NCBI GenBank assembly: GCA_031082125.1
Contig: JAVHLM010000003.1
Location: 288,842-352,841, forward strand
Origin: Vulcanimicrobiota bacterium
Lineage (GTDB): Bacteria; Vulcanimicrobiota; CADAWZ01; Ess09-12
Length of the DNA stretch: 64,000 nt
Direction: 5' to 3'
Positions within the stretch are counted from its first letter, which is position 1; each line of letters opens with the position of its first letter. Made by a program: the position numbers and the translations under genes. Shown here in pieces: positions 15,232 through 51,917 of this stretch. Under the pieces are notes generated by a model that was given only the letters and a program-made list of their open reading frames with translations, did not search any database and had not been told where the DNA came from.

Positions 15232-15465
15232 CCCGTGAAGACCCCTGCGTCACCACGATGAAAGGCGCCTATCTCTTCTGCGACAGAAACCAGAAGAAGC
15301 GCTGGAAGACATCGTGCTTGAAGCGGAAGAGGGGAAAGAGGGACCGGCAGCGAAGGTGGAAGTCTCAGACGACTGGGTGATCATCGACAGCATGAAACTG
15401 CAAAGAAAAGAAGAGAAGCCTGCCGGCACTTAAAGAGGCTCCTCCCGGAACCATAAGGAATTCCA

Positions 15466-16752
15466 GTGATGATGAACACGCCTCGCACCTTTTTTCCCTT
15501 GCTCCTGCTGGCGGCAGTGACACTCCTTCTTCTGCCCTGCCCTGCCCGGGCAGAGGTGAACTCATCGCAGCCCTTCAAGGATGAGCTGATGGCTCATGGG
15601 CTTTATGACAGGATGGTAAGGGCATTCAGAACTGCCGGTTCTCTCTCTTACACCGTCGCTTTTCGCTGGGAAAGTGATGGCAGGGAGCTTTCCCGCGCCC
15701 GCTACAAGCTATGGATGAAAAAGCCCAATTTTGCCCGCATCGAGGGATATGATGCGGACGGCGCCCTGAAGAGCACCCTCGTGGGCGACGGAAAGTTCTT
15801 CTGGATTTTCTGGCCCGGGAAAAGACCCTGCTGGAGCTATGAAGATGAAGAGGCTTACCGTGCGACTTCCGAAAAAAGATACATGAAGACGCCTGCCCCC
15901 CAGGGGTGCCATTCACTTGGCCACTCCGTGGGGAAAATGGACTTCGGAATCCCCATCACCATATTGGATCCCAGCATCTTCCACGGGAGCAACGATTCCC
16001 TCCAGGCTCACATTGACGCCATGAGGCTCTGCGGCGAAGAGAAGGTACAGGGTGAAAAGTGCGCCCTCATCGAGGTGAGCTATCTTAAGGGCCAGAGGAG
16101 GCAGTTCTACTGGATTGCAAAAAGCACGTCGCTGCCGCTGAAAATCAAGCAGGTCATCTCTGTGAATAAAATCGTCACGATGAGCGAGGAGCTTTCAGAG
16201 ATGAAGCTGAACGGCGAGATTCCCGGGGTGTCCTTCTCCTGGTCGCCTCCTGCAGGGTGGGAGGAATGGCAGGAGCCCTCTGTGGAAACGGGTCTCCTTA
16301 AAAAAGGAACTGCGGCGCCTGATTTCTCCTTCCCCCTCCTCACGGGCGGCACCTTCACCCTTTCCGAGCAGAAAGGGAAAACGGTATGGCTCATCTTCTG
16401 GCGCTATGGCTGACCGGAGTGCGCAGAAAAATTACCCCGCTTGGAAGCGGTGTACCAGAAATTCAAAGAAAAAGGCCTCCTCATAATAGGCTTCAATGTC
16501 ACAGACGACAGGGAGATAGTCCTTAAAGCCCTGGCGGCGGCCAAGGTCACCTTCCCGAACATCCTTGACTTATCTGAAGCCGCCCACAAGGTGAATTTCG
16601 AGATCTACCAGAAACATGGCCGCGCCGCCGTCCCGCTGAGTTACCTCATTGACAGCCAGGGCATTATCATCGACGCGTGGTATGGCTTCAGTGAAGGCTT
16701 CCCCGAGGTGATGAAGGCAATGGATACTGAGCCTGACAAACCGATAAGATGA
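15466..16752 (+). CDS. candidate selenoprotein: secreted LolA-like domain fused to TlpA/ResA-like thioredoxin domain, with in-frame UGA (Sec) at 16411-16413 giving a UxxC redox motif
   Basis: ORF 15466-16413 and ORF 16441-16752 are in the same frame (offset 975 = 3x325) and are separated only by the TGA. Read-through gives KGTAAPDFSFPLLTGGTFTLSEQKGKTVWLIFWRYG-U-PECAEKLPRLEAVYQKFKEKGLLIIGFNV. This aligns to the TlpA/ResA consensus ...V.LNFWASWCGPCRAEMP.LE.LY.KYKDKG..V.GVNV with the TGA at the first Cys of CxxC. A signal peptide MMMNTPRTFFPLLLLAAVTLLLLPCPARA is present. Confidence 0.6.
16433..16454 (+). promoter_or_regulatory. candidate bacterial SECIS-like hairpin downstream of the in-frame UGA
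   Basis: UACCCCGCUUGGAAGCGGUGUA forms a roughly 9-bp stem (UAC.CCGCUU / AAGCGG.GUA) with a bulged U and a G-rich apical loop. It starts about 20 nt after the UGA, within the range seen for bacterial SECIS elements. Confidence 0.35.
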
Positions 16753-16772: not shown

Positions 16773-17327
16773 ATGCTCGAAGATACTGATGGAACAAGCT
16801 TCCCTCCCCATTCCCGCCTGGTGGTCGTGGAGTTCACCGGGAGCGGCTCCCTCCAGGTGGAGCGGGAAAACCATGCATCGGAAGAAGTGCCGGTCTCCGA
16901 TGTCCTCTCTCTTCATGGCGCCAGGATCCGCCGAGAATCAATGCGTTTCAGCCCGCAGAAAAAAGGCGGCACCATGATCGGGAAAATGACGCTGCTTGCC
17001 ATGGGAGTGCCGGTCAATCCCCTCCCCGGCAAGCCCAGGGACACGACGACAAAATCCGAAGATATGCACTATGTGCTGGGGATGAGGGTAAGGAAAAGAG
17101 AGGATCTCTGGTTCCTCATGGCCACCTCCTTTAATTTCCGCAAGGCCCTCGGCGCAGACGCCGCTTTCTCCCTGGAGATGAACGTGCGGGCCTTCATCCA
17201 GAAGCTCGGCGACTTCTGCCCCGGTGCGCGGCGAGATCGCTTCTTTGAGGCGGCCCTCGCAAAAGCGGCGCTCCCGGAGCCCATTGACAGCCTCCTGGAA
17301 TTTATAAAGGCTACCTATGGCTCCTGA
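16773..17327 (+). CDS. hypothetical protein
   Basis: 184-aa ORF in a co-directional gene string. No motif recognised. Confidence 0.3.
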   Translation: MLEDTDGTSFPPHSRLVVVEFTGSGSLQVERENHASEEVPVSDVLSLHGARIRRESMRFSPQKKGGTMIGKMTLLAMGVPVNPLPGKPRDTTTKSEDMHYVLGMRVRKREDLWFLMATSFNFRKALGADAAFSLEMNVRAFIQKLGDFCPGARRDRFFEAALAKAALPEPIDSLLEFIKATYGS

Positions 17328-17367
17328 GCATTGCCATTGACCGGGATCATTAAAAGGAGGCAGGCAT

Positions 17368-19032
17368 ATGAAGGGGGCGATGGACAAGGGGCAGAGCATG
17401 AAACAATTGAAGCAGCCTGTCTCCCCTCGGGGCGGGCTATGGGTGTTCCTTCTTCTGTCAGGTGTTTTTTTCTTCTGCGCTCATGAAACCGGAGCTCTGG
17501 AAGATCTTTCCCGCCGGGAAGTGAGAGAGACCATCATTGGCCGTCTTTACCCCACTGTCTGTGATTACCTGGCGATAAGCCCCAACCTGAGGCATTTTGC
17601 CTATGGCAGGAAACATAATGATACCCTTAAGGAATCACTGGTGTATGACGGGAAAGTGCTGGGGACCTATGACAGCATCACAAGCGAATGGCTCGTGTTC
17701 AGCCCCGACAGCAGAAGGCTTGCCTATGTGGCTGATTCATGCACCGTAGTCGATGGAAAGAAAAGTAAGCCCTATGGCAGGTACGATCCCTCCGCAATGA
17801 GATTCAGCCCCGACAGCAGAAGGTTTGCCTACGCGGTGGTGCATGCATGGAATATCTGGCGTGCCGTCATTGACGGGAAAGAGAGCCGGACCTATACCCG
17901 TGTTTCAGATTTCTGCTTCAGCCCCGACAGCAGGCGCCTCGCTTTTCAGGGTGGCCGCGCGGGGAAAGAATTCATCGTGCTTGATGGCCGGGACCTCAGG
18001 CGGTACCCCGGATCGAAGTGGCCCCGCTTCAGCCCCGACAGCAGGCGGTTCGCCTGCGTGGCGACGGACGGTGGAAAAGAATTCGTGGTCGTTGACGGCA
18101 GGGAGGGAAAACGTTACCATTCCATTGCCTTTGACATGGTCTTCAGCCCCGACAGCAGAACTTTCGCCTATGTGGCTTCCCGGGGGGAGAGTCGATGCGC
18201 AGTGAGAGGGGATAAAGAACTGAAGTGGTACGATTCAGTGGGTGAACTCTGCTTCAGTGCCGATAGCAAGAGATTTGCCTATATCGCATCAAAAGGGAAT
18301 AAGCACCGTGCCGTCATCGATGGGAAAGAAGGCAGGGAATATGACAGGATCCTTACCGGCTACGGTGGCGGAATAAGATTCAGCCCCTGCTCGAAAAGAA
18401 CGGCTTATGTTGTCGAAACAGACAGCCCGCCTTCAAAAAAACAGTTTGCAGTCATTGACGGGAATGAAGCGGGGAGCTATGATTCAGTGTCCATGCCGAT
18501 CTTCAGCGCCGATGGGAAGAGAGCCGCTTACATCGCAAAGGAAAAGGGAAAAATGTTTATCGTTGACAATGGGATAGAGATGAAGCGCTACGATAAGGTC
18601 GAATCGCTGGTCCTGAGCCCTGATGCCTCCACGTTGATATATGTGGCCTCCCTTGGGGGAAAGCAGTTCCTCGTCGTGGAGAAGGAGGAAAGCAGGGCTT
18701 ACGATTCCGTCTCCTGTCCCTCTTTCAGCCCCGGTGGCCTGATGAGAACCTGTATAGCATCGCGGGAGGGAAAGCAGTTTTTCGTCGTGAATGGAGATGA
18801 AGGAAAGCCTTATGGAAGAATCATCAATTTCCAGTTTGACTCCCCGACGAGCCTCCATTACCTGGTCGAGGAGGAAAGCCCCCCTGACGCCGGGTACGAG
18901 AGCACCTATATCATTGTGGAGGAAAAACTCCCTCTCCCGGGAGCCATCCACCCCTATTCTTCGGTGACCCGTGAAAAATCACCCCTGTCCTGCAGGAGGC
19001 TCACAGAATGGAGCTGCCTGTTGCTGCCGTGA
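17368..19032 (+). CDS. PD40 (TolB-like) beta-propeller repeat protein, secreted, ~13 tandem repeats
   Basis: RBS AAGGAGG. Signal-like hydrophobic N-terminus. ~40-aa units FSPDSRR(F/L)AYVA...GGKEFVVVDGKEGK.YD repeated about 13 times. The consensus SPDG/SPDS...AY matches the PD40 repeat. Confidence 0.6.
   Translation: MKGAMDKGQSMKQLKQPVSPRGGLWVFLLLSGVFFFCAHETGALEDLSRREVRETIIGRLYPTVCDYLAISPNLRHFAYGRKHNDTLKESLVYDGKVLGTYDSITSEWLVFSPDSRRLAYVADSCTVVDGKKSKPYGRYDPSAMRFSPDSRRFAYAVVHAWNIWRAVIDGKESRTYTRVSDFCFSPDSRRLAFQGGRAGKEFIVLDGRDLRRYPGSKWPRFSPDSRRFACVATDGGKEFVVVDGREGKRYHSIAFDMVFSPDSRTFAYVASRGESRCAVRGDKELKWYDSVGELCFSADSKRFAYIASKGNKHRAVIDGKEGREYDRILTGYGGGIRFSPCSKRTAYVVETDSPPSKKQFAVIDGNEAGSYDSVSMPIFSADGKRAAYIAKEKGKMFIVDNGIEMKRYDKVESLVLSPDASTLIYVASLGGKQFLVVEKEESRAYDSVSCPSFSPGGLMRTCIASREGKQFFVVNGDEGKPYGRIINFQFDSPTSLHYLVEEESPPDAGYESTYIIVEEKLPLPGAIHPYSSVTREKSPLSCRRLTEWSCLLLP
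17560..18840 (+). repeat. tandem degenerate ~110-120 bp coding repeats (PD40 units) inside CDS 17368-19032
   Basis: The 17-mer TTCAGCCCCGACAGCAG recurs at about 17698, 17804, 17916, 18030 and 18140. Diverged copies continue to about 18730. Confidence 0.6.
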
Positions 19033-19949: not shown

Positions 19950-21356
19950 TCATTCCATTGCAGCCTGTAAGTCTGTCGCGGTTTTTCTGATTTTTTTCTT
20001 ATAAAATATGGGTATTATGGCTCTTTTTATCCCCATTACGGCAAAATTAATAATATGATGCATCTTTATAATACCCATTCCAGAAAGTTTCTTTATAATC
20101 TTCACATACTTCCAGGGGGTATAAAACCTCATGGTAATCTGATCCTTGATGTCTATCAAATCATTGACCTCGTATTTATCAGAAAAAATATACTTGATAT
20201 CATCAATCTCTTTCACATGATAGTCGGGATAGTCATTGATGAGAGTATTCAACGGGGAATACTTATCGGTCATGAGAGTGAATGTTTCGATGGTATCAAT
20301 TCTGGATTTTGCGGCAAACTGAGGAATGCGGAGCATTTCTTCCTTGGTTTCCGTAAAATAGCCCACCATGAAAAAACCGTGGACAAAGAATTTGTAACTG
20401 CTTATTGTGCGTAAAGCCTTTAATGCTTCGGCGGTATCAAATCCCTTGTTCATCAGTTTTAATACGCGGTCACTTGCCGATTCGATTCCAATGGTGAGAA
20501 TTCTTATTCCCGCCTTATACATTTTCTCAAGAACATCGGGATGCTTGCCCACATCAAGGCGAACTGCAGCCATGAAATTTTTCTTCAGCCCTTTCTCAAT
20601 GATGAGGTCACAGATTTTTTCGACACGCTTGACATTTGCGGCAAAGTTGTCATCGGTGATCAATATGACCGGGGCATCGATGGTCATTAATTCTTCCACG
20701 ACAGATTCGGGAGATCTTCCCGTCCAGTTTCTTTTCTGCCCCAGCGGGTTATTATTGAAATTACAGAATTTGCAATGAAAAGGACACCCTCGGGAAGTTG
20801 AGATGAGATCGACGGTAATCCCGATTTCTTTATTGGTATAATCGTACCTGCGAAGTCCCCTGTTCACGATAATGCTGTTGTCAATTGCCTTCAGGTTCCG
20901 GTTCTCATTATGAACTACCGTGCCGTTTTTCCTGAATGAAATGCCATCAATGGCTTCAAAATTCTTTCCCTCTGCAATCTCCCTGATGCTCTCCTCTCCA
21001 TCGCCTCTTACGATGCATGAAACCCTGGGATGCTGCTGAAAAATTTCTTCAACATAGGCAGTGGCTGTTCTGCCTCCCACGATGATGGTATTCTCTTCAG
21101 GCACCTGCTCGATGATTGCTGAAAGTGCGGGGAGCTCAAAGTCCCAGTTGATCGAGACTGCAACCATGGCGCCATTGCCTTTTTTTACCAGGGGAACAAA
21201 AGTCTCTTCATGCCTGAGGTCTACAATGGTGACGGGAATGCCGGCTTTCTCCAGGACTGTCCCGATGATTTCCAGCCCCAGCGGTGGATAGTAATGGTAG
21301 CTGGTTTTCGTTTTTCCCGCATGAGGGTAAATGAGCAAAGCACTTGTAAATTCCAT
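19950..21356 (-). CDS. B12-binding-domain radical SAM protein (class B radical SAM, methyltransferase-like)
   Basis: N-terminal cobalamin-binding Rossmann segment (MVAVSINWDFELPALSAIIEQVPEENTIIVGG) then SRGCPFHCKFC (canonical CX3CX2C). The gene is strongly AT-rich compared with its surroundings. Confidence 0.85.
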   Translation of the reverse strand: MEFTSALLIYPHAGKTKTSYHYYPPLGLEIIGTVLEKAGIPVTIVDLRHEETFVPLVKKGNGAMVAVSINWDFELPALSAIIEQVPEENTIIVGGRTATAYVEEIFQQHPRVSCIVRGDGEESIREIAEGKNFEAIDGISFRKNGTVVHNENRNLKAIDNSIIVNRGLRRYDYTNKEIGITVDLISTSRGCPFHCKFCNFNNNPLGQKRNWTGRSPESVVEELMTIDAPVILITDDNFAANVKRVEKICDLIIEKGLKKNFMAAVRLDVGKHPDVLEKMYKAGIRILTIGIESASDRVLKLMNKGFDTAEALKALRTISSYKFFVHGFFMVGYFTETKEEMLRIPQFAAKSRIDTIETFTLMTDKYSPLNTLINDYPDYHVKEIDDIKYIFSDKYEVNDLIDIKDQITMRFYTPWKYVKIIKKLSGMGIIKMHHIINFAVMGIKRAIIPIFYKKKIRKTATDLQAAME

Positions 21357-22998: not shown

Positions 22999-25596
22999 AT
23001 GGCAACAATGACAACAGAAACTGATGTGGCGCAGATCGTTGAAGAGATGGTCAGGCAATCAAAGGAAGCCTCGGCGGTCTTCACCCAGTACAGCCAGGAA
23101 GATGTGGATCGGATCGTCTACGCCGCCGCCAGGGCCGGCGCCCATCACCGTATCGAGCTTGCCAGGATGGCTGTCGAAGAGACAGGAATGGGGGTCTTTG
23201 AAGACAAGGTCATCAAGAATCTCTTTGCAACAGAAAATGTGTACCATGATATAAGGGATATCAAGACAGTGGGGTTAATTCATGACTGTGCTGAGACGGG
23301 GATCATGGAGTTTGCCGAGCCCCTGGGAGTTATTCTGGCGATCACGCCCGTCACCAACCCCACGTCAACCTGCATGTTCAAGATACTTCTCGCTCTCAAG
23401 ACGCGGAACACCATAATCATCTCGCCTGCCAGAAATGCCATGAAGTGCACCAACGAGGCGGCGCGTATTCTCTACGAGGCCGCACTCGAGGCCGGTGCCC
23501 CCGATTATTGCGTCCGCTGGGTCGAGAATCCTTCCAGGGAGGTAACGCACGCCCTTATGAGCCACCCGGATGTCGCAGTTGTTCTGGCTACTGGAGGCAC
23601 GGGGCTCGTCCATGCAGCTTACGGCTCGGGAAAGCCTGCAATCGGTGTCGGGCCTGGAAATGTTCCGGTGTTCATTGAGAAAACTGCCGATCTCGATCAG
23701 GCCATCAATGACATAGTGCTCAGCAAGACTTTCGATAACGGGATGATATGCGCCTCGGAGCAGTCGCTCATTGTCGAAGCTTCGATTAAGGATAAGGTCG
23801 AAGAGAAATTGCGCGCCATGGGAGCCTATTTCCTCTCCCGCGAGGAGACTGAGAAGCTTCAGAATATAGTCATCGATCCCCAGAAAATGACCATGAATCC
23901 CAAGGTGGTTGGCCAGAAGGCAGCGCATATTGCCGAAATGGCGGGAATCAAAGTCCCCCAGGATACGCGGCTACTCATCGCCCCTCTTGACGGCGTAGGG
24001 GATGGGTATCCCCTTTCGCGGGAAAAGCTCTGCCCCCTCCTTGGCTTCTATACTGTCCAGAGCCTTGATGAAGGCGTCAACCTCTGCACCGATCTCACCC
24101 ATCTCGGCGGGCTCGGCCACACGGCCTCAATTTTCTCCAAGGATCCCGAGGCGATAAGGGAATTCGGCGAGACAATCAATGCAGGGAGGGTCATCGTGAA
24201 CGCCCCTTCATCCCATGGAGGCATCGGCGACATCTACAACTGCCTCCATCCCTCCCTTACCCTCGGCTGCGGCGCAGGCGGCCGGAATATCACGACTGAC
24301 AACGTGACGGTGACTCACCTGCTCAATATCAAAAGAATATCAAAGAGGATGGCGAAGATGAGATGGTTCCGTGTTCCTTCCCGAATCTATTTTGAGCCCC
24401 ACTCCATGGATATGTTCCTGAAACAGGAGGCAAAAGAGCTGGGATGCCACCGCGCATTCATTGTCTGCACTGGCTCTGGCATAAGGCAGGGAGCTGTGGG
24501 CCGCCTGGAGCAGGGCCTGCTGGAAGCGGGCATCACGTCAACGATATTCTCCGATATCGCGCCTGATCCCACCCTCGAGATGATTGAGGCCGGCTACAGG
24601 GCCATGGAGAGGGCAAAGCCCGATCTCATCGTCGCCATCGGCGGCGGCTCGCCTCTTGACGCGGCGAAGGCAATGTGGTTCTTTTATGAGCAGCCCGACT
24701 TTTCTTTTAATGACCTCAAGCTTTACTTCATGGACATCAGGAAGCGGATCGTGAAGTTCCCTTCCCTTGGCAGGAAGGCAAAACTCATTGCCATTCCCAC
24801 GACGAGCGGCACCGGGAGCGAGGTAACGGCCTTCACCGTCGTCACCGACAGCACGACGCATAAAAAATATCCCATTGCCGATTATTCCCTCACGCCCGAT
24901 ATCGCCATCATTGATCCCACCCTTGTCATGACTGTTCCTGCCGAAACCACCGCAGATACGGGTTTAGATGCGCTCTCCCATGCGCTTGAATGCTACGTCT
25001 CGATTATCGCCTCCGATTTCACCGATCCTCTTGCCCTGAAGGCCATTCAGCTCATCTTCAAGTATCTCCCCGATGCGATGAAGAACGGGAAAGATGCCAG
25101 GGCAAGGGAGAAACTGCACAATGCATCGACAATTGCCGGCATGGCCTTTGCGAATGCATTCCTGGGAATCAACCACTCGCTTGCCCATATCCTCGGTGCC
25201 ACTTTCCACATCTCCCATGGGCGCGCCAACGCCTTTGTCATGATCCCTGTCCTGCGCTACAATGCCGAAAAGCCCCACAAGCTCCAGGCGTACCCTAATT
25301 ATGAAAGTCCCAAGTCGAAGGAGCGCTATGGGGAGATCGCCCATGCGCTCAATCTCTCTTTCAAGACCCCTGAAGAGGGGGTGGAGAGTCTCGTCAATGC
25401 CATCAAGGAGCTGAAGAAGCAGGTCGGCATTCCCGCCTCACTGAAGGAAGCCGGCATCGCCAAGGCAGATTTCGACAAGCAGATCGACAGGATGGCGGAA
25501 CTGGCCTTTGAGGACCAGTGCACGGTGTCAAACCCGAGCTATCCCCTCGTGGAGGATCTGAAACAGATGCTCAGGGATACCTACGACGGCGTCTGA
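22999..25596 (+). CDS. adhE: bifunctional acetaldehyde-CoA/alcohol dehydrogenase
   Basis: 865 aa. N-terminal ALDH domain (LIHDCAETGIMEFAEPLGVILAITPVTNPTSTCMFK) and C-terminal iron-ADH domain (GGGSPLDAAKAMW...AIPTTSGTGSEVT, HSLAHILGATFHISHG). Confidence 0.95.
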   Translation: MATMTTETDVAQIVEEMVRQSKEASAVFTQYSQEDVDRIVYAAARAGAHHRIELARMAVEETGMGVFEDKVIKNLFATENVYHDIRDIKTVGLIHDCAETGIMEFAEPLGVILAITPVTNPTSTCMFKILLALKTRNTIIISPARNAMKCTNEAARILYEAALEAGAPDYCVRWVENPSREVTHALMSHPDVAVVLATGGTGLVHAAYGSGKPAIGVGPGNVPVFIEKTADLDQAINDIVLSKTFDNGMICASEQSLIVEASIKDKVEEKLRAMGAYFLSREETEKLQNIVIDPQKMTMNPKVVGQKAAHIAEMAGIKVPQDTRLLIAPLDGVGDGYPLSREKLCPLLGFYTVQSLDEGVNLCTDLTHLGGLGHTASIFSKDPEAIREFGETINAGRVIVNAPSSHGGIGDIYNCLHPSLTLGCGAGGRNITTDNVTVTHLLNIKRISKRMAKMRWFRVPSRIYFEPHSMDMFLKQEAKELGCHRAFIVCTGSGIRQGAVGRLEQGLLEAGITSTIFSDIAPDPTLEMIEAGYRAMERAKPDLIVAIGGGSPLDAAKAMWFFYEQPDFSFNDLKLYFMDIRKRIVKFPSLGRKAKLIAIPTTSGTGSEVTAFTVVTDSTTHKKYPIADYSLTPDIAIIDPTLVMTVPAETTADTGLDALSHALECYVSIIASDFTDPLALKAIQLIFKYLPDAMKNGKDARAREKLHNASTIAGMAFANAFLGINHSLAHILGATFHISHGRANAFVMIPVLRYNAEKPHKLQAYPNYESPKSKERYGEIAHALNLSFKTPEEGVESLVNAIKELKKQVGIPASLKEAGIAKADFDKQIDRMAELAFEDQCTVSNPSYPLVEDLKQMLRDTYDGV

Positions 25597-31083: not shown

Positions 31084-34000
31084 ATGAAGATTCACAAGCA
31101 CTACACTCTTCAGAAATGGGCACTCCTGGCAGTTTTTTTCATCTTGGCCCTCTGTCTTTCCGCCTGGGGCGCTACCCCCGCTCTGGCTCAGGGCGCAGCG
31201 GACCAGGGAGCCGAGAAAAACAAAGCCGGAAAGCTTCTCAGGGAGGCTGATTCTCTTCTCAAAAAGGGGCTTAATAATGAAGCGCTCAGGAAGTACGAAG
31301 AAGCCTATGAATACTGCGTGAAGCATGGTGACAGGGAAAGCTCAGAGGCAGCCATGGCGCTTTACAGCATCGGCTACACCCACTATCACCTCGGTAACTA
31401 TGACAGGGCCCTTGCATACTATAGTGATGCTCTGAACGCATGGAAAAAGCTCTACGGTGAAGAGCACCCTAAAATTGCGGTGTGCTATACCCTCATGGGA
31501 AATGTCTATGACAAAAGGGGAGACTATGACCTGGCGCTCAACGCTCTGGAGGTTGCTCTTTCACTCTTTAAGAAGCATCATCATGAGAACCATCCTGACG
31601 TGGCGCTCACTTATGATTTTCTGGGGAACGTCCACCGCCATAAAGGTGAGTATCATAAGGCAGTTAAGATCTATGAGATGGCCATCGACTTGAAGAAACG
31701 GCTACAAAGCAATAATGATCACGAGATGGGCACTCTCTATAACAACTTAGGCATAGCCTATGATGAGCTGGGAAAGCTTGATGAAGCCCTCGCCAGTTTT
31801 GATACATCAATTTCAATTCACCAGAGGCTTTTCGGAGAAAACCATCCTACCCTGGCAGCAGCTTATGGCAATATAGGCACGATCCACGATAAAAAAGGAG
31901 ATTATCGCAAGGCAGCGGAGTATTATGAAAAAGCTCTGGCTCTTCAGGAACAATCCGGCATAGAAGACAATCCCTTGCTGGCCAAATTATACAGCCAGCT
32001 GGGCTCATCCTATGAAAACATTGATGCGCACGCGAAAGCCCTGGCCTGCCATGAGAAGGCTCTTACAATCCACAGGAGGCTCTGCGGTGAGAACCACCGC
32101 GACGTGGCAGGGTGCTATATCGATCTGGGCTCTTTCTATGAATCCAGAGGTGAGCTTGAACAGGCTCTTGCCTATTATGAAAAGGCCCTCGCAGTGTACC
32201 GGAAAATTTATGAAAAAGATCATCCCGATACCGCGCGGTGTTATATGAAATTAGGGAATCACTATATAAGAAAAAGGGACTTTGACAGAGCGCTTGACTA
32301 TTTATCCCATGCCCTGGCAGTTCACCGGCAGTTTCTGGGTGCAGAGCACCTAAAAATCGCAGAGGACTACAGGAGTATTGGCAACTGTTATAGTGATAAG
32401 GGCGAATATCAGAAGGCTCTGGACTATCTTGAAAAAGCCCTGGCAATTTTGAAGAAGTCACATGGTGAGGATCATCCCGACATAGCAGCGTGTTATAAGG
32501 ATATCGCATGGATATGTTATTCCAGGGGAGACTCTGAAGAAGCCCTCGCTTATTACGGCAAGGCCCTGGCCATTGACGTGAAGTGCTACGGCGAGGATTC
32601 CGTCTTTACTGCGGCAGACTATGCTCACATAGGTTTCTTTTATTCGGATGAAAAACAGTATGAGAAGGCGCTTGCCTCTTTCAATAAGGGAATGCGTGCC
32701 CTTTCAATGAAGAAGGTAAAAAGCGCCGCTCTTGTGAAGCCCGAAGACCTCCCTCCTGATGATCTCACAGTGATCTTGCTCCGAAATAAAGCTTCAGCCT
32801 TGTATGAGCTCTCGCTGCGGGATAACTCCGGCAAAGAGCTGAAGGAGGCGTCATCGCTCCTTCTCCTGGCCATTGATATTCAGGACAAGGTAAAAGGGGA
32901 TATAAAGGAGACCACCTCAAAGAAACGTTTATCCATAAGATATTCCGAAATCTTTCCACTCACGATAGAGGTGCTCCTCAAGCGGCACGAAAGAGAGAAA
33001 GATTCGGCATATGTAAGTGAGGCCTTTCAGACAGCGGAGCGGGGCCTGTCCAGAGCCTTTCTGGAGATGGTGGGGAAGTCCAGGGCGCAGGTTGCGGGGA
33101 ACCTGCCCGCAGAAGTTCTGGAGAGAGAGGCGGCCCTCAGGGGAGAGCAGAAAGCGCTCGACAGCCTCATAGACAAGGAGAACGGGAAGCCCAGGGAAAA
33201 GAGAGATATGGAGACTCTCAGGGGCTTCTATGGGAAGCGTGCGGAAAAAGAGAGGGAGCTGGAAAGCTTTGTGAGGGAGCTTGAAAAAAAGTATCCCAAG
33301 TACGCCCAGATCAAGTACCCGAAAACCTGTACTTTGAGAGAGGTGCAGCAAGAGGTGCTGGGAGGCCGGGAGGCATGCCTTCTCTATTATGTGGGAACGA
33401 ACCGTTCGTTTCTCTTTGTCATCACGAGAAATGTCTGCGCTCTCTTTCCTCTCCCCGGAACCAAAAAGACGGGAGCAATGGTGAGCCGGTTCAATGCCTG
33501 TATGACTGCAGCGCGCAGGAGCGATTCCTGGGTGAAGGAAGCCGAGCTCGCCGCAGTGTCCCACGAGCTCTACACCGCCCTTGTGAAGCCTGCGGAGCCA
33601 ATGATAAAGGGGAAGGACCTCATCGTCGTTCCCAGCGGCGACCTGTATTTCCTCCCTTTCGAGGCCCTTCTCACCGAGGCCGGTAATGAAGAAAAGCCGC
33701 CTCACTATCTTGTGGAAGACCATGCCGTCTCCTATGCTCCCTCCCTTTCCCTCTACAGTCTCATGAAAACCCTGGAGAAGGGCCGTGCCCGGGCGGCGAA
33801 ACCTCTCCTGGCCTTCGGCGATCCCGTGTACCCCGTCGATGATGATCGCTGCAATGCAGGGATTATTGAGAAAGAAACGATGAGAGACGTGGAGCGGTAT
33901 GGCGCAAAAGGCCTTGTTTTCGGGAGGATAGAGGCCACTGGCGACGAGGTGCGCTCCGTTGCAGAGACGCTCGGTATTTCCCCGTCTTCGAGGGACATTC

Positions 34001-34509
34001 ACCTGGGATTCAATGCGTCAGAGGAGAGCCTTCGCAGGTGCAGCCTCAAGGATTATCGCATGATCCACTTTGCCTGCCATGGCATTGCAGGATACGACAT
34101 GGGCATTGAGCCGGCCCTGGTGCTCTCGCTTTCAAGCACTCCCGCCGGGAAGCCTGAATGTGACGGTTTTCTCACCATGTCGGAAATCTTCAGCCTCGCT
34201 CTCAACAGCGATTTGGTGGTGCTCTCGGCATGCCAGACAGGGCGGGGGAAGCTTGAGAAAGGCGAGGGGCTTGAGGGGATCTCCCGGGCATTTCTCTTTG
34301 CAGGGAGCTCTTCCGTGGTGGCCAGCCTCTGGTCAATAGCAGACGAGGAGACCAAGCTCTTCATGGTGGACTTTTACCGGGTCCTGGGGAAAGGAAAGGG
34401 GAGAAGAGAAGCGCTTCGGGAGGCAAAACTCCGCTTCATCGCCGAGAAGGACTCCAGAAAGAGCCTCCCTTACTACTGGGCTCCCTTCATTCTCATAGGG
34501 CTCCCCTGA
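31084..34509 (+). CDS. TPR-repeat protein with C-terminal CHAT protease-like domain
   Basis: Signal-like N-terminus. About 11 kinesin-light-chain-type TPR units (ALAYYEKALAV...). C-terminal CHAT domain with catalytic dyad context IHFACHGIA and LVVLSACQTGRG. Confidence 0.85.
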   Translation: MKIHKHYTLQKWALLAVFFILALCLSAWGATPALAQGAADQGAEKNKAGKLLREADSLLKKGLNNEALRKYEEAYEYCVKHGDRESSEAAMALYSIGYTHYHLGNYDRALAYYSDALNAWKKLYGEEHPKIAVCYTLMGNVYDKRGDYDLALNALEVALSLFKKHHHENHPDVALTYDFLGNVHRHKGEYHKAVKIYEMAIDLKKRLQSNNDHEMGTLYNNLGIAYDELGKLDEALASFDTSISIHQRLFGENHPTLAAAYGNIGTIHDKKGDYRKAAEYYEKALALQEQSGIEDNPLLAKLYSQLGSSYENIDAHAKALACHEKALTIHRRLCGENHRDVAGCYIDLGSFYESRGELEQALAYYEKALAVYRKIYEKDHPDTARCYMKLGNHYIRKRDFDRALDYLSHALAVHRQFLGAEHLKIAEDYRSIGNCYSDKGEYQKALDYLEKALAILKKSHGEDHPDIAACYKDIAWICYSRGDSEEALAYYGKALAIDVKCYGEDSVFTAADYAHIGFFYSDEKQYEKALASFNKGMRALSMKKVKSAALVKPEDLPPDDLTVILLRNKASALYELSLRDNSGKELKEASSLLLLAIDIQDKVKGDIKETTSKKRLSIRYSEIFPLTIEVLLKRHEREKDSAYVSEAFQTAERGLSRAFLEMVGKSRAQVAGNLPAEVLEREAALRGEQKALDSLIDKENGKPREKRDMETLRGFYGKRAEKERELESFVRELEKKYPKYAQIKYPKTCTLREVQQEVLGGREACLLYYVGTNRSFLFVITRNVCALFPLPGTKKTGAMVSRFNACMTAARRSDSWVKEAELAAVSHELYTALVKPAEPMIKGKDLIVVPSGDLYFLPFEALLTEAGNEEKPPHYLVEDHAVSYAPSLSLYSLMKTLEKGRARAAKPLLAFGDPVYPVDDDRCNAGIIEKETMRDVERYGAKGLVFGRIEATGDEVRSVAETLGISPSSRDIHLGFNASEESLRRCSLKDYRMIHFACHGIAGYDMGIEPALVLSLSSTPAGKPECDGFLTMSEIFSLALNSDLVVLSACQTGRGKLEKGEGLEGISRAFLFAGSSSVVASLWSIADEETKLFMVDFYRVLGKGKGRREALREAKLRFIAEKDSRKSLPYYWAPFILIGLP

Positions 34510-36942: not shown

Positions 36943-38190
36943 ATGGGAACCAATGAAGGGACAGGAGTCTCTTTCAGAGGGAAAGTCTTCCGCACTCCTA
37001 AAAAGAACCCGGGCAGCCCGCGGCTCATGGAGCCCGAGGAAGCCCTGGAGCTCATGAAACCCTTTCTCAGGAAAACAGGGCTCACGCGCTTTGCGCAGAT
37101 CACGGGCCTTCGAAGCGTGGGCATCCCGGCGGTGAACGCCATAAGGCCCATAAGCCATAACTCATCGGTAACCCATGGAAAAGGCCTCACCCTGGCCCAT
37201 GCCCTGGCCTCGGCAGCAGGGGAGTCCATAGAGCGCTATTGCTGGTTCAACTGTACCGTTCCCGCCTTCAGCAGCACCTATAATGATCTGAAAGAGCGGC
37301 GCACCGTGATCCCCATGGAAAGGCTGGCCCTTTCCAGGTTCTCGCTCTTCAGGCCTGACCTTCCTGAACAGTGGATGCTCGGCTGGGACCTCATGCATGA
37401 CGAGGAGGTGCCGGTGCCTTTTTCATCGGTGAGCAGGTCCGGCACCTGTTTCACCACGGAGCTCCGCTCCTTCCAGAGCACGTCAAACGGCCTCGCCTAC
37501 GGCGTGGACTTCCTGGAGGCCCTCTCTCAGGCAATCGAGGAAGTGGTGGAGCGGGACGCCGTCGCCTGCATGGATATGGCCCTCCTGTCAGGCCGGATAC
37601 CGCTCTCGAAAGTCCGCGTGGACCTCTCCACCATACCTTTCGAGACCATCGGGGGACTCATCGGAAAAATTGAAGAAGCGGGGCTCCTCCCTGTCCTGCT
37701 GGACTGCACTACCGATACGGCGATCCCCGTTTATCACTGCATGCTCCTCGATGACAAGAAATGCTACGTCGGATCAGGGGCGAGCCTGAGCCCCGAGACC
37801 GCCATGGCAAGGGCCTTCACCGAAGCGGCCCTCGCCCACGCCGTGCTGTTCAGCGGGGTGAGAGACGTTTATTTCAGGGACGAGAGGCTTGCAGGCTCGC
37901 TCGTCGATTTCAGGAAGCAGATGGCAGAATCCCTCGAAGCCCCGGCGGAAAGGAGCGCACGTGGCCTTTCCGCCGAAAGGACCGGGTCCTTTGAGGGGGA
38001 CATCGCCGTGATGAAGGATAAACTCCGGGGTGCCGGCATCGACCAGCTCATCGTGATAGACCTTCCAGAGCCAGGCCTCCCGGGGAGCGTGGTAAAGGTG
38101 ACGGCCCCCGGCCTCGAGGGATACCACCATACTATTGCCTATCGTCCGGGCTCCAGGGCTCTCAGCCGCATGAGCGGAGAGCGGCCCTGA
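36943..38190 (+). CDS. YcaO-domain protein (TfuA-associated type; ATP-dependent backbone amide activation)
   Basis: AGGAGG RBS. N-terminal LTRFAQITGLRSVGIPAVNAIRP and the canonical YcaO ATP-binding region GKGLTLAHALASAAGESIERY. Later TTDTAIPVYHCML (TD..IPV motif). Confidence 0.85.
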   Translation: MGTNEGTGVSFRGKVFRTPKKNPGSPRLMEPEEALELMKPFLRKTGLTRFAQITGLRSVGIPAVNAIRPISHNSSVTHGKGLTLAHALASAAGESIERYCWFNCTVPAFSSTYNDLKERRTVIPMERLALSRFSLFRPDLPEQWMLGWDLMHDEEVPVPFSSVSRSGTCFTTELRSFQSTSNGLAYGVDFLEALSQAIEEVVERDAVACMDMALLSGRIPLSKVRVDLSTIPFETIGGLIGKIEEAGLLPVLLDCTTDTAIPVYHCMLLDDKKCYVGSGASLSPETAMARAFTEAALAHAVLFSGVRDVYFRDERLAGSLVDFRKQMAESLEAPAERSARGLSAERTGSFEGDIAVMKDKLRGAGIDQLIVIDLPEPGLPGSVVKVTAPGLEGYHHTIAYRPGSRALSRMSGERP

Positions 38191-38242
38191 AAGCCCGGGG
38201 AACTGCGAAAGCGGTAAGAATATAAAAGAAAGGAGGGATGAC

Positions 38243-38530
38243 ATGTCTTTGGAAAAAGCGAAAGATGCGCTGAAGAAGATCATGAATGATCCGGACTTCA
38301 GCAGGAAGATGATCAATGTGAAGAGTGATCAGGAAGCGATAGAGCTCCTCTCTTCCCATGGCTTCAAGTTTACCAAGGAAGAATTCGAAAAGGCGAAGCA
38401 TGAGATGAGACAGGCTGTTATCAGCGACGCTGAGCTCGCAGGCGTGGCTGGAGGAAGCGACAGCTCCAACAAAACAGCTTATCCGGTTGCGAACAGTGTG
38501 ACAGTCGGAGCGGCGGCGGCTGCTTTCTAG
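38243..38530 (+). CDS. Nif11-type RiPP precursor peptide with Gly-Gly leader cleavage motif
   Basis: AGGAGG 7 nt before the ATG. Leader MSLEKAKDALKKIMNDPDFSRKMINVKSDQEAIELLSSHGFKFTKEEFEKAKHEM is a Nif11-family leader. ELAGVAGG is the double-glycine motif. Predicted core is SDSSNKTAYPVANSVTVGAAAAAF (24 aa). Confidence 0.8.
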   Translation: MSLEKAKDALKKIMNDPDFSRKMINVKSDQEAIELLSSHGFKFTKEEFEKAKHEMRQAVISDAELAGVAGGSDSSNKTAYPVANSVTVGAAAAAF

Positions 38531-38614
38531 AAGGCCATGAAGGGGCACACCGGCATCAGAGCGGTGTGCCCCTCATGAATTCCCATGAAGCCTTACAGGG
38601 CGGGAGGAATGTTC

Positions 38615-40009
38615 ATGAAGTGCGTGATCTTTACAGGGCCGACCCTCTCAAAGGAGGAAGCCCAGCCCTGGCTTGAAGCCATCTATCTGCCTCCCGCCAG
38701 GCAGGGAGACATAATAAGCGCCATATTCACCCACATGCCCGACATCATAGGCATCATCGACGGCGCGTCCTATCCGGACCTGGAAGTATGGCACCGGGAG
38801 CTGCTCTACGCGCTTGAGAACGGCATTGCCGTGTACGGCTCATCGTCAATCGGGGCGCTCCGGGCAGCGGAGCTGGATATCCATGGCATGCAGGGTGTGG
38901 GAAAGATATATGAGGGCCTCAAGGGCATTGAGGTGAGCGACGATGACGAGGTAATGTGCCACTATGAGTGCAGCGGCTCTCACCGGCGCATCTCCGAGCC
39001 CCTGGCGAACATCAGGGCGACTTTTGAGGCCCTCCACAGGGAGCGGCTGATTGACGGGAAGCTTGTGGCGACCCTTCCCGCCCTGGCGAAGTCGCTGCAT
39101 TACAGGAAGCGCACCTTTCAGGCGATCCTGGAAAAAGCCCGCAACGCCGGGGTGCTTTCCGAAAAGCAGGCCGAAGAGCTTCTCAATCATACGAGGTCCT
39201 GTTACGTGGATCTCCAGAAAGAAGACGCGATTGAACTTCTCAAGGCCGTCAAAAAGGCCATGGAGACCGGCGGCAGGGCACCGTACGGGAAGATTGTTGA
39301 CCGTTCCGACGATCTGATCTTCCACGTGGCGAAGTACAGGGACCGCACCATCTCACGTGACGGCGAAGGGGAAGGGCTCCCCCTGTTCTCGCTGGTGGAT
39401 TACATGGTCCTTACCCACCCTGAAGCCGACGAGCTTGCCGTGAGTGCAAAGAACCGTTTCCTGGCGGGAGTGCTTGCCGACATGCTTCACGTTGAGGCAT
39501 CTGACAGGGAGACAGGGGAGGAAGCCCTGACCTTCAGGACGCGCTATGGCCTCGAGGATCAGGAGCGATTCGGAGAGTGGCTTGCCGAAAACGATCTCGT
39601 CGAGGAAGAGTTCAGGCGGCTGATGGAACAGAACGCGAAGATGAAGGCGCTTCATGACTGGCTGAGGGACAAGCTCGGCCAGAGAAAGTTCACAAGGGTC
39701 ATCACCGATGAGCTCATGCTGACGGACCAGTATTCCCGGTGGGTCGGGAAAGCGCTCCTGGCCGAGAAGCTCTATCAGGAGCGCCGCGAGTACGGCGAAG
39801 AGCTCTTGAGCATCGAGGCTCCGGAGAAGCTGGTAAGGGACCACGTGGCGGGGGCTCCAAGGGAATGGCACAGGATCTTCAGGAAGGTCATGGAAGGGAT
39901 GGAGATCACCGATATCATGCTGAAACACCAGCTTGTCAAGGCCAGGATAGAGAGGGAGACGCTGGAAAAGGCGCTGCTGAGGCATCTCGAGCCGGCGGCC
40001 CACGAGTGA
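38615..40009 (+). CDS. TfuA-like protein (YcaO partner for thioamidation) with ~270-aa C-terminal extension
   Basis: MKCVIFTGPTLSKEEAQ...IYLPPARQGDIISA...IIGIIDGASYPDLEVWHRELLYALENGIAVYGSSSIGALRAAEL matches the TfuA domain. The start is taken at 38615 (GGAGG + 7 nt); an alternative ATG is at 38585. Confidence 0.8.
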   Translation: MKCVIFTGPTLSKEEAQPWLEAIYLPPARQGDIISAIFTHMPDIIGIIDGASYPDLEVWHRELLYALENGIAVYGSSSIGALRAAELDIHGMQGVGKIYEGLKGIEVSDDDEVMCHYECSGSHRRISEPLANIRATFEALHRERLIDGKLVATLPALAKSLHYRKRTFQAILEKARNAGVLSEKQAEELLNHTRSCYVDLQKEDAIELLKAVKKAMETGGRAPYGKIVDRSDDLIFHVAKYRDRTISRDGEGEGLPLFSLVDYMVLTHPEADELAVSAKNRFLAGVLADMLHVEASDRETGEEALTFRTRYGLEDQERFGEWLAENDLVEEEFRRLMEQNAKMKALHDWLRDKLGQRKFTRVITDELMLTDQYSRWVGKALLAEKLYQERREYGEELLSIEAPEKLVRDHVAGAPREWHRIFRKVMEGMEITDIMLKHQLVKARIERETLEKALLRHLEPAAHE

Positions 40010-40024
40010 TGAAAGGAGGCTTTT

Positions 40025-45629: not shown

Positions 45630-45645
45630 CAGGGAGGAGAAAAAC

Positions 45646-46746
45646 GTGTTCACAGAAAAGAGCCGCCTTTCCCTCAAGAGAACCATATACTCGGTGATGC
45701 TTGACGGCAAAGATCTCGTGCTTCTTTGCACCCCCTGCGAGCCCGTGGTGCTGAAGGAGCTCTCACCTTTCAGAAGGGAACTCCTCATTCTGCTTGACGG
45801 GAGGCGCACCGCGGGAGAGATCATGCAGGAGCTGAACGCGCGGGGCCATCGGTGCATTTTCAGCAAGGTGAGGGAAGAGCTTGATCGGCTCGATGAGTGG
45901 CTCCTTCTGGAAGAGGAGGGTGATGCTCCTTTGCCGGAGGATACAGAGCATGCGGGGCGTAACGACCGCACGCGCCTGTGGTTCGCCGCCAGGAGGACCT
46001 CAGGTGCCTCCTTTGCCCGCCAGGCAGAGAGAGATCTCCAGTCGGCCCATATCGTCCTCTTCGGCCTGGGAGGGCTGGGCTCGCAGCTCTTCACCCAGCT
46101 CCTGCTGACAGGCATCGGTGAGATCACCGCCGTTGACTGCGAGAAGGTGGAGGAGAGCAACCTGAACAGGCAGAGCCTCTTCTACGAGAGCAACGTGGGC
46201 CGCCTGAAGACGGAGGCTGCGGCGGAGCGGGCCCGGCTGATGAACAGCTCAGCATCCATTCATTTTGTGGATAAGAGAATCGCCTCGGCTGGAGACTTCG
46301 CCTCACTGATGGCCCCTGCGAGCCTGGCGCTCCTCGCCGCCGATACTCCCCGCGACATGATATTCGACTGGATGAACGAGGCCAGTTACACGACAGGCGT
46401 GCCGGTGCTCTACAGCAACGGTGTCCTCCAGTCCTCCATGGGGATCGGCCCGCTGGTGATCCCTGGCAGGACGGCGTGCTATCAGTGCTCGATGCCCGAA
46501 GGCGCCCGTTTTGAAGACCCCCTCGTGGAGCAGATCAACAGGCGGCACTGCCACGGGGTGATACTCCCTCCTCTTGCCATGTGCGCGGGTCTTATGGTGC
46601 TTGAGCTCGTGAGGCATCTCACTGGATGCGAACCCTGCCGGATTTATGACCGCAGGCTTCACATGGACTTCAGAAATTACCGGATGTGGTTCCAGGATAT
46701 AGAAAAGCGCCGGAGCTGCCCTTTCTGCGAACAGAGAGCGCCATGA
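45646..46746 (+). CDS. E1-like (ThiF/MoeB/HesA-family) protein with N-terminal PqqD-like RRE domain
   Basis: GGGAGGAG + 6 nt + GTG start. The N-terminal ~90 aa (YSVMLDGKDLVLL...ELLILLDGRRTAGEIMQELNARG) resemble RiPP recognition elements. E1 Rossmann motif IVLFGLGGLGSQLF...ITAVDCEKVEESNLNRQ. Paired CxxC zinc motifs (CYQC...CPFC). Confidence 0.75.
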   Translation: MFTEKSRLSLKRTIYSVMLDGKDLVLLCTPCEPVVLKELSPFRRELLILLDGRRTAGEIMQELNARGHRCIFSKVREELDRLDEWLLLEEEGDAPLPEDTEHAGRNDRTRLWFAARRTSGASFARQAERDLQSAHIVLFGLGGLGSQLFTQLLLTGIGEITAVDCEKVEESNLNRQSLFYESNVGRLKTEAAAERARLMNSSASIHFVDKRIASAGDFASLMAPASLALLAADTPRDMIFDWMNEASYTTGVPVLYSNGVLQSSMGIGPLVIPGRTACYQCSMPEGARFEDPLVEQINRRHCHGVILPPLAMCAGLMVLELVRHLTGCEPCRIYDRRLHMDFRNYRMWFQDIEKRRSCPFCEQRAP

Positions 46747-46807
46747 CAGGCTGCAGGCTCCCCGCCGGTGAATTGGCGCCCGGCAGGCTTCCTGAGGTGT
46801 GCCTTGG

Positions 46808-49711: not shown

Positions 49712-49715
49712 TTAC

Positions 49716-51914: not shown

Positions 51915-51917
51915 GCA

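What the first reader, a model, noticed from the sequence alone, without database searches (positions are those of the whole stretch)
15466..16752. In-frame UGA exactly at the redox-active position of a TlpA-like thioredoxin fusion: candidate selenocysteine (UxxC) protein
Two adjacent ORFs are in the same frame and split only by TGA at 16411-16413. The upstream one ends ...TVWLIFWRYG. The downstream one begins PECAEKLPRLEAVYQKFKEKGLLIIGFNV, completing a thioredoxin fold. The TGA falls exactly where TlpA/ResA proteins have the first Cys of WCxPC, so the read-through product has G-U-P-E-C. A hairpin with a bulged U and G-rich loop (16433-16454) lies ~20 nt downstream, consistent with a bacterial SECIS. 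Selenoprotein thiol-disulfide oxidoreductases are known in anaerobic Deltaproteobacteria-like lineages. Fusion to a LolA-like periplasmic domain is uncommon. A gene caller would truncate or split this protein.
Basis: seen in the sequence. Interest (0 to 1): 0.8.

Follow-up and report, generated by a model that had tools for sequence, protein, structure and literature searches.

The report
Missed selenocysteine gene: exported LolA-like–thioredoxin-fold reductase
The "stop" codon at 16411-16413 almost certainly encodes selenocysteine in the active site of a secreted two-domain redox enzyme that annotation cut short; this is a real but fairly ordinary addition to a well-known class of bacterial selenoproteins.

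Summary
ORF 15466-16413 ends at TGA, and the same frame runs on for 112 codons to 16752. Together they form one protein: signal peptide, LolA-like DUF2092 domain, and TlpA/ResA/DsbE-like thioredoxin-fold domain. The TGA sits at the first redox position, giving U-P-E-C. Full-length homologues have Cys in that column (CPPC, C[VIL]PC). About 36 of 52 homologous loci from species-representative genomes, and every metagenomic homologue that was called truncated, carry TGA at exactly this codon. In all of them P-x-C and the rest of the fold follow in frame. The closest relative (L010, 77% nt identity) keeps the TGA, and dN/dS is about 0.17-0.19 on both sides of it. A hairpin at 16433-16454 meets all four published bacterial SECIS criteria and is 100% conserved in L010. 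On its own it is weak evidence, because about 15% of random TGAs here also pass. The main clade has a different, covarying hairpin that the Cys forms lack. TGA is otherwise the normal stop codon in this window. I could not check selA/B/C/D, because only 64 kb of the genome is available and none of these genes lies in it. Verdict: a genuine selenoprotein that GenBank annotates as a truncated protein (MDQ7822227.1). It is a new member, possibly an uncatalogued subfamily, of the known UxxC thioredoxin-fold selenoproteins.

The parts
15455..15459 (+). Shine-Dalgarno-like AAGGA ahead of the clustered starts GTG 15466 / ATG 15469 / ATG 15472
   Evidence: Read directly in the sequence. GenBank uses ATG 15469 (P0001 = MDQ7822227.1).
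15466..16752 (+). Complete selenoprotein gene (428 codons plus stop): signal peptide, LolA-like domain, thioredoxin-fold domain with U-P-E-C
   Evidence: Translation; Pfam; full-length Cys homologues of 420-450 aa with the same architecture.
15466..15552 (+). Predicted Sec-type signal peptide (MMMNTPRTFFPLLLLAAVTLLLLPCPARA | EV)
   Evidence: By inspection only: a basic n-region, a hydrophobic core and an A-x-A cleavage motif. The homologues have equivalent N-termini, and residues 1-32 of the modelled homologue are disordered. No signal-peptide predictor was available.
15583..16260 (+). LolA-like domain (Pfam DUF2092 core at residues 134-264 = 15865-16257)
16300..16692 (+). TlpA/ResA/DsbE-like thioredoxin-fold domain, interrupted in the annotation by the Sec codon
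16411..16413 (+). In-frame TGA = predicted selenocysteine codon, first position of the U-P-E-C redox motif
   Evidence: Aligned with Cys in the full-length homologues. TGA at the same codon in L010, L102 and about 36 of 52 species-representative genome loci.
16420..16422 (+). TGC = resolving Cys of the UxxC motif
   Evidence: Cys is invariant at +3 in all TGA forms, with TGC/TGT synonymous variation.
16433..16454 (+). Candidate bacterial SECIS hairpin UACCCCGCU-UGGA-AGCGGUGUA (loop 16442-16445; C16436/U16451 mismatch)
   Evidence: Fold. It meets all four bSECIS constraints: 4-nt loop, 5-bp upper stem, G at loop position 2, 28-nt spacing, -8.2 kcal/mol (criteria from PMC13188914). It lies in a 27-nt run identical to L010, against 62% third-position identity overall.
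16750..16752 (+). True stop codon (TGA) of the gene
   Evidence: TGA is the commonest ordinary stop in the window (25 of 43 ORFs).

Best explanation
15466-16752 is one gene for an exported selenoprotein of about 428 residues. A Sec-type signal peptide sends it out of the cytoplasm. Its N-terminal LolA-like (DUF2092) beta-barrel domain is followed by a TlpA/ResA/DsbE-type thioredoxin-fold domain whose active site is U-P-E-C. UGA 16411-16413 is recoded to selenocysteine during translation, most likely by SelB and Sec-tRNA(Sec) recruited by the hairpin 20 nt downstream (16433-16454). The selenolate takes the place of the exposed nucleophilic Cys of the CxxC motif. It attacks a substrate disulfide (or possibly a sulfenate or peroxide), and Cys at +3 resolves the intermediate as a selenenylsulfide. 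A membrane electron donor of the CcdA/DsbD type would then re-reduce the enzyme. The LolA-like domain probably binds a hydrophobic or lipidated partner and so sets substrate specificity. Shown here: the single reading frame, the Sec/Cys pairing, purifying selection on both sides of the UGA, the two folds, and a SECIS-compatible conserved hairpin. Inferred: actual Sec insertion, export, the catalytic cycle, the reductant and the role of the LolA-like domain.
For: Cys homologues carry WR[VL][GS]C[PIVL]PC at the TGA column. All metagenomic homologues called as truncated end at ...WRxG-TGA, followed in frame by P-x-C-R-E-E and 105-112 more codons. About 36 of 52 GTDB species-representative loci have TGA there; 11 have Cys, 3 Ser and 1 Leu. 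In the 1.84-billion-protein library, 28 of the best 150 representatives end exactly at the Gly before this position. Between the window and L010, dN/dS is 0.17 upstream and 0.19 downstream of the TGA. The two longest identical nucleotide runs between them cover the TGA context (30 nt) and the hairpin (27 nt). In the main clade a 7-bp hairpin 14 nt after the UGA is 95.9% paired across 38 sequences. It shows U-A/C-G covariation (30:8) and fixed GAG-GAG...CUC codons, while the neighbouring Arg codon varies freely. Non-Sec forms pair at only 4.4 of 7 positions against 6.5 of 7. The window hairpin meets the bSECIS criteria. UGA is not reassigned: it ends 25 of 43 ORFs. A tRNA-Sec gene lies 8 kb from the TGA-form homologue in L058. 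The folds are supported.
Against: The Sec machinery (selA, selB, selC, selD) was not found in the 64-kb window, and the rest of the genome could not be reached. No paper in the searched library links Eremiobacterota, the NCBI label of this MAG, to selenocysteine. The window hairpin differs in sequence and position from the main-clade element and has only one close relative, so there is no covariation for it. It is not more stable than shuffled sequence, and 15% of random TGAs pass the same criteria. No Rfam family matches. There are no experimental data.
Confidence: 0.88

Rival explanations
1. The TGA is a real stop. The cell makes a 314-aa DUF2092 protein with a stub of a thioredoxin fold, and the downstream part is either a decaying remnant or a separate polypeptide started at TTG 16441.
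For: This is how GenBank and the gene callers annotate it (P0001). TGA is the usual stop here. The Sec machinery is not shown for this genome.
Against: dN/dS downstream is 0.19, the same as upstream. P-x-C between the TGA and the first possible start codon is conserved with synonymous changes in about 40 independent genes. No Shine-Dalgarno sequence precedes TTG 16441. A fragment starting there would lack the whole active site and strand beta1. The stop would have to recur at the one catalytic codon across several phyla.
Confidence: 0.05
2. The UGA is read through, but with a standard amino acid (Cys, Trp or Gly from a near-cognate or suppressor tRNA) rather than selenocysteine.
For: Sec machinery is unverified in this genome. 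The hairpin could also act as a generic read-through stimulator.
Against: The codon sits exactly where Sec/Cys exchange is the rule in thioredoxin-fold selenoproteins. The hairpin fits the SelB-type bSECIS geometry. A tRNA-Sec lies next to a homologue in L058, and Planctomycetes, which hold most homologues, are documented Sec users (PMC4807772). No general in-frame TGA pattern is seen in other genes of the window.
Confidence: 0.05
3. The TGA is a sequencing or assembly error or a recent nonsense mutation (TGC/TGT to TGA) in this MAG, making the gene a pseudogene.
For: It takes a single-base change from a Cys codon, and MAGs do contain errors (for example the frameshift right after the TGA in L058).
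Against: The independent metagenome contig L010 has the same TGA in an identical 30-nt context. L102 and about 36 genome loci from different studies have it too.
Confidence: 0.02

Closest known systems
[quoted passage not shown]
   Same: It has the same fold and the same Pfam families (AhpC-TSA, Redoxin). Sec occupies the first position of a UxxC motif, Cys-containing homologues exist, and a bSECIS-type hairpin follows the UGA.
   Different: It carries an N-terminal LolA-like DUF2092 domain of about 230 residues and a signal peptide. The main text of the reviews and database papers I could read never mentions LolA, DUF2092, lipoprotein, Planctomycetes or Eremiobacterota. I could not retrieve the example accessions or supplementary tables, so I cannot tell whether this family is already counted under one of these names.
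TlpA / ResA / CcmG (DsbE) extracytoplasmic thiol-disulfide reductases
   Different: Sec replaces the nucleophilic Cys. The protein scores only 66 bits against the 170-bit NCBIfam ResA cut-off. It is fused to a LolA-like domain rather than a membrane anchor. No cytochrome c maturation, Sco or CcdA genes lie nearby.
NCBIfam NF041054 'ResA-like WAxxUGC motif-containing protein' (a curated selenoprotein family)
   Same: It is a ResA-like thioredoxin-fold selenoprotein with extra N-terminal sequence.
   Different: The score is 37.9 bits against a cut-off of 300, and the motif is WRYG-U-PEC rather than WAxxUGC. It is not a member.
LolA / LolB / RseB / LppX-type lipid- and lipoprotein-binding domains (Pfam DUF2092)
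   Different: No described LolA-like protein that I know of carries a redox domain. Ligand binding was not tested.

Membership tests
Bacterial selenoprotein gene (Sec-UGA recoding) | In-frame UGA aligned with Cys (or Sec) in homologues, at a catalytic position | tested here: met
   Cys in full-length homologues, and TGA in about 36 of 52 genome loci and in all the truncated metagenomic homologues.
Bacterial selenoprotein gene (Sec-UGA recoding) | Coding conservation continues in the same frame after the UGA | tested here: met
   dN/dS is 0.19 downstream against 0.17 upstream versus L010. P-x-C-R-E-E is conserved with synonymous variation. The downstream part completes the Pfam domain.
Bacterial selenoprotein gene (Sec-UGA recoding) | bSECIS hairpin: 3-9 nt loop, upper stem of at least 4 bp, G in the first two loop positions, 16-37 nt from the UGA, MFE <= -7.5 kcal/mol (PMC13188914) | tested here: met
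   loop UGGA, 5-bp upper stem (8 bp in all), 28-nt spacing, -8.2 kcal/mol. Specificity is low, since 51 of 350 random TGAs also pass. Support comes from 100% conservation in L010.
Bacterial selenoprotein gene (Sec-UGA recoding) | selA, selB, selD and tRNA-Sec present in the same genome | not testable with these tools
   None is present in the 64-kb window.
Bacterial selenoprotein gene (Sec-UGA recoding) | Selenium actually incorporated (75Se labelling or mass spectrometry) | not testable with these tools
   Requires an experiment.
TlpA/ResA/DsbE-like thiol-disulfide oxidoreductase (cd02966) | Thioredoxin fold with the TlpA-type insertion | tested here: met
TlpA/ResA/DsbE-like thiol-disulfide oxidoreductase (cd02966) | CxxC redox motif after an aromatic residue, plus a cis-Pro loop | tested here: met
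   FWRYG-U-PE-C, with Sec in place of the first Cys. The AAVPLSYLID segment matches the conserved ...VP(L/M)xY(I/L)ID column of the family.
TlpA/ResA/DsbE-like thiol-disulfide oxidoreductase (cd02966) | Scores above a curated equivalog or subfamily cut-off (ResA, TlpA, DsbE, StoA) | tested here: not met
   ResA 66 bits against 170, TlpA 29 against 230, DsbE 24 against 123, StoA 36 against 210. It has the same fold class but is not an orthologue of any named enzyme.
TlpA/ResA/DsbE-like thiol-disulfide oxidoreductase (cd02966) | Extracytoplasmic location | tested here: inconclusive
   A signal-peptide-like N-terminus (R, hydrophobic core, ARA|E) is seen by inspection in this protein and its homologues. 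No predictor was available.
Peroxiredoxin (AhpC/TSA, BCP) | PxxxT/SxxC peroxidatic motif | tested here: not met
   The residues before U are L-I-F-W-R-Y-G, with no Pro at -7 and no Thr/Ser at -3. The AhpC-TSA Pfam hit reflects the shared fold.
NCBIfam curated selenoprotein families (WAxxUGC_long, SelL-related, PrxU) | Score above the family cut-off | tested here: not met
   37.9 bits against 300, 16.9 against 120, 14.6 against 270.
LolA-like superfamily / DUF2092 | Pfam PF09865 above its gathering score, and a LolA-type open beta-barrel | tested here: met

The most novel reading that the evidence does not exclude
The LolA-like(DUF2092)-TlpA-like 'UPxC' proteins may be a distinct selenoprotein family that has not been catalogued. 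In it, Sec rather than Cys would be the majority state (about 36 of 52 species-level genomes across Planctomycetota, Verrucomicrobiota and others). The family would include variants with two modules or two Sec residues (P0002; L019 'U-G-U-P-A-C') and at least three different SECIS solutions. The LolA-like domain would couple binding of a lipid or lipoprotein to selenol redox chemistry in the periplasm. The window would also be the first sign of Sec decoding in a lineage labelled Eremiobacterota.
Probability: 0.3. Interest if true: 0.55.

Novelty: new member of a known kind. Interest (0 to 1): 0.42.

Why it matters
It corrects an annotation. MDQ7822227.1 and dozens of relatives are deposited as truncated 'DUF2092 domain-containing proteins' with an orphan thioredoxin fragment downstream. 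It shows that a whole domain architecture, 458 clusters at 50% identity, mostly uses selenocysteine. It gives a set of natural Sec/Cys/Ser/Leu variants and three SECIS variants of one gene for studying Sec gain and loss. It points to selenium use in poorly known anaerobic lineages. It also links a LolA-like domain of unknown function to redox chemistry, which suggests a testable role in handling lipidated or hydrophobic substrates in the cell envelope. It does not change what is known about how Sec is decoded or why UxxC enzymes use it.

Tried and rejected
Rfam found nothing at gathering thresholds for the whole window, and nothing at E<=10 for 16380-16500 beyond two chance-level hits. ARAGORN found no tRNA in the window. 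A scan of every in-frame TGA flanked by long open frames found no second selenoprotein candidate; the others are shadow frames or gene boundaries. Pfam annotation of 43 ORFs found no selA/B/D, CcdA/DsbD, Sco or cytochrome c maturation genes.

I could not reach the rest of the MAG. P0001 and an ORF at the window edge are not in the contig index. Accessions are known (MDQ7822227.1, MDQ7822234.1), but no tool lists a genome's proteins. I ran no further search on SelA or SelD, because the MAG's orthologue would be unlikely to rank among the rows displayed.

The first metagenome scan, with the protein as query, found nothing. So the window-type hairpin has a single close comparator and no covariation test.

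I tested whether a PD40-repeat neighbour is a conserved partner. It is fused in L010 and adjacent in L058 and L018, but present near only 2 of 61 loci, so I rejected it as a general feature. I rejected the peroxiredoxin reading because the PxxxTxxC motif is absent. Literature searches for DUF2092, LolA plus selenocysteine, and Eremiobacterota plus selenocysteine found nothing relevant. Supplementary tables of the selenoprotein catalogues are not held.

Full report
**1. The observation**

- ORF 15466..16413 (+) ends ...TVWLIFWRYG-TGA.
- The same frame continues P-E-C-A-E-K-L-P-R-L-E-A-V-Y-Q... for 112 codons to TGA 16750-16752.
- With the TGA read as Cys, Pfam finds DUF2092 (residues 134-264) followed by AhpC-TSA/Redoxin/Thioredoxin_8 (279-409, E 4e-20).
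- The best NCBIfam hit is the ResA subfamily, below its cut-off.
- The N-terminus (MMMNTPRTFFPLLLLAAVTLLLLPCPARA|EV) looks like a Sec-type signal peptide. This is by inspection only.
- An AAGGA sits 6-9 nt before the clustered start codons.

**2. Is the TGA a stop or a codon?**

A search of 5.8 billion proteins returned three groups.
- The GenBank product of this very gene, truncated at the TGA: MDQ7822227.1, 'DUF2092 domain-containing protein', from a Candidatus Eremiobacteraeota MAG on a 365,891-bp contig.
- About 20 full-length homologues of 420-450 aa with the same two-domain architecture.
- About 10 homologues of 290-330 aa.

In the alignment the full-length proteins have WR[VL][GS]-C-[PIVL]-P-C, with Cys in the TGA column. 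Every short homologue ends at ...WRxG.

I fetched the DNA of the short ones. Each ends in TGA and continues in frame with P-x-C-R-E-E and 105-112 further codons that complete the fold.

A scan of one genome per GTDB species gave 52 homologous loci. They come mostly from Planctomycetota (Phycisphaerae, Sedimentisphaerales, Pirellulales, Thermoguttaceae), with some from Verrucomicrobiota, Krumholzibacteriota and UBP1. The codon at this position is:

| Codon at the redox position | Loci |
|---|---|
| TGA | about 36 |
| Cys | 11 |
| Ser (C-G-S-P-P-C) | 3 |
| Leu | 1 |

An exhaustive HMM search of 1.84 billion representatives found 458 clusters at E<=1e-30. Of the best 150, 28 end exactly at the Gly before this position, and the nine I read all end W-x-x-G.

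The stop therefore recurs at one catalytic codon in dozens of independent assemblies. That excludes sequencing error and ordinary termination.

**3. Selection**

The closest relative, metagenome contig L010 (77% nt identity), reads ...WLIFWRYG-TGA-PTCAQELPRLEAVYQ.
- Identity by codon position is 0.82/0.91/0.65 upstream and 0.75/0.93/0.62 downstream of the TGA.
- dN/dS is 0.17 upstream and 0.19 downstream, so both halves are translated in this frame.
- In 38 main-clade genes, the codons between the TGA and any possible restart vary only synonymously: CCN, TGY, CGN.
- TTG 16441 has no ribosome-binding site.
- UGA is not reassigned in this organism. It ends 25 of 43 ORFs, and those ORFs give full-length Pfam matches under the standard code.

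**4. The recoding signal**

The window hairpin is 16433-16454, UACCCCGCU-UGGA-AGCGGUGUA.
- It has 8 bp with one C/U mismatch, not a bulged U.
- It meets all four constraints of the published bSECIS model: loop of 3-9 nt, upper stem of at least 4 bp, G in the first two loop positions, 16-37 nt spacing, and MFE <= -7.5 kcal/mol (PMC13188914). Its own values are a UGGA loop, a 5-bp upper stem, 28-nt spacing and -8.2 kcal/mol.
- On its own this is weak evidence. 51 of 350 random TGAs in the window also pass, and the fold z-score is 0.66.
- Conservation adds support. The two longest runs identical to L010 are 30 nt around the TGA and 27 nt over the hairpin, against 62% third-position identity overall.

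The main clade uses a different element: GGAGAUG-NNN-CAUCUCC or GGAGAC-NNNNN-GUCUCC, 14 nt after the UGA.
- It is 95.9% paired in 38 sequences, with 30 U-A against 8 C-G at one pair.
- The GAG-GAG and CUC codons are fixed while the adjacent Arg codon varies freely.
- Non-Sec forms pair at only 4.4 of 7 positions and use other Leu codons.

L102 shows a third arrangement, CCUGCA-AGGUU-UGCAGG at +27. No Rfam family matches any of this.

**5. What could not be checked**

The window has no tRNA and no selA/B/D. The MAG's other contigs could not be reached. Three pieces of indirect support remain.
- The UGA and the downstream frame are maintained in two diverged genomes of this subclade.
- A tRNA-Sec lies 8 kb from the TGA-form homologue in L058.
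- Sec use is documented in Planctomycetes (PMC4807772).

No paper in the library links Eremiobacterota with selenocysteine.

**6. What the protein is and how it probably works**

The motif F-W-R-Y-G-U-P-E-C lacks the peroxiredoxin PxxxTxxC signature. It has the C-P-x-C spacing of DsbE/CcmG.

The best-supported mechanism is an exported reductase.
- The selenolate of U replaces the nucleophilic Cys and attacks a substrate disulfide.
- Cys at +3 resolves the intermediate as a selenenylsulfide.
- A CcdA/DsbD-type donor recycles the enzyme.
- The LolA-like domain supplies binding of a hydrophobic or lipidated partner.

The catalytic cycle, the donor and the role of the LolA-like domain are all inferred. 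Gene neighbourhoods give no consistent partner. A PD40-repeat protein is downstream here, fused in frame in L010 and adjacent in L058, but it is near only 2 of 61 loci.

**7. Comparison with what is known**

UxxC thioredoxin-fold selenoproteins are long established. They include the Prx-like thiol:disulfide oxidoreductase, the thiol-disulfide isomerase-like (cd02966) protein and the Redoxin family protein (table in PMC13188914).

This gene works like them and belongs to that kind. It is not a member of any curated NCBIfam selenoprotein family or of the ResA, TlpA or DsbE equivalogs, because every score is far below cut-off.

The main texts I could read never mention the LolA-like fusion. Supplementary lists were not available, so I cannot exclude that its members are already counted under a generic name.

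**8. Verdict**

Novelty: a new member, possibly a new subfamily, of a known kind. Interest is moderate at 0.42. The value lies in correcting a systematic mis-annotation and in a Sec-dominated, widely distributed domain architecture, not in any new principle.

Noticed in passing
window 16773-19032; L010:170-1063: Two ORFs lie downstream of the selenoprotein gene: a 184-aa ORF with no Pfam match (16773-17327) and a 554-aa PD40 (WD40-like beta-propeller) repeat protein with its own signal peptide (17368-19032). In the closest relative, L010, the thioredoxin domain runs in frame straight into the PD40 repeats, with no intervening ORF. L058 has PD40 proteins just upstream of its homologue. The association is not general (2 of 61 loci).
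   Followed up: partly
window 36943-55752: A RiPP-like biosynthetic cluster: YcaO (36943-38190), TfuA (38585-40009), three radical SAM proteins (40025-45629, one with a B12-binding domain), ThiF (45610-46746), two ABC exporters of which one carries a C39 peptidase domain (46808-51914), and two M16 peptidases (52911-55752). No precursor peptide was looked for.
   Followed up: no
L019:~845-853 (CAYRXS010000066.1, Planctomycetaceae MAG): This homologue reads WLNKWR-TGA-G-TGA-PACREE. A second in-frame TGA sits where sister sequences have Cys (WRCG-U-PxC). It is either a possible double-Sec U-G-U-P-A-C site or an error.
   Followed up: no
P0002 (JGI 3300075153, contig of 5786 bp; no DNA available): Three consecutive gene calls (327, 449 and 240 aa) are separated by 18-nt in-frame gaps, and each of the first two calls ends at ...WRAG. 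This looks like one polypeptide with two DUF2092-thioredoxin modules and two Sec codons.
   Followed up: partly
L038:4569 and L038:8037; L053:1230; L058:10832 and 1882-1978: L038 carries a Sec-form and a Cys-form paralogue 3.5 kb apart. L053 has Leu (TTG) at the Sec column yet keeps the SECIS-type hairpin, which suggests a recent loss. L058 has a 1-nt frameshift just after its TGA (a long-read assembly) and a tRNA-Sec gene 8 kb upstream.
   Followed up: partly
P0003, P0004, P0005, P0022 (JGI metagenome proteins): These are full-length family members that read G-R-P-A-Y-R or G-P-P-A-R at the UxxC site, with no Cys or Sec at all. They could be redox-dead variants or error-rich sequences. This is unexplained.
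   Followed up: no
P0067, P0069, P0071, P0090, P0108, P0094, P0101 (representative library): These TGA-truncated family members carry 190-340 extra N-terminal residues of several unrelated kinds, including a second LolA-like domain as in P0011. The DUF2092-thioredoxin(Sec) unit is therefore reused as a module.
   Followed up: no
window 31084-34509; 22999-25596; 19950-21356: The window also encodes a 1141-aa TPR-CHAT protein, a bifunctional AdhE (aldehyde/alcohol dehydrogenase) and B12-binding radical SAM enzymes. This fits an anaerobic, fermentative lifestyle for the host.
   Followed up: no
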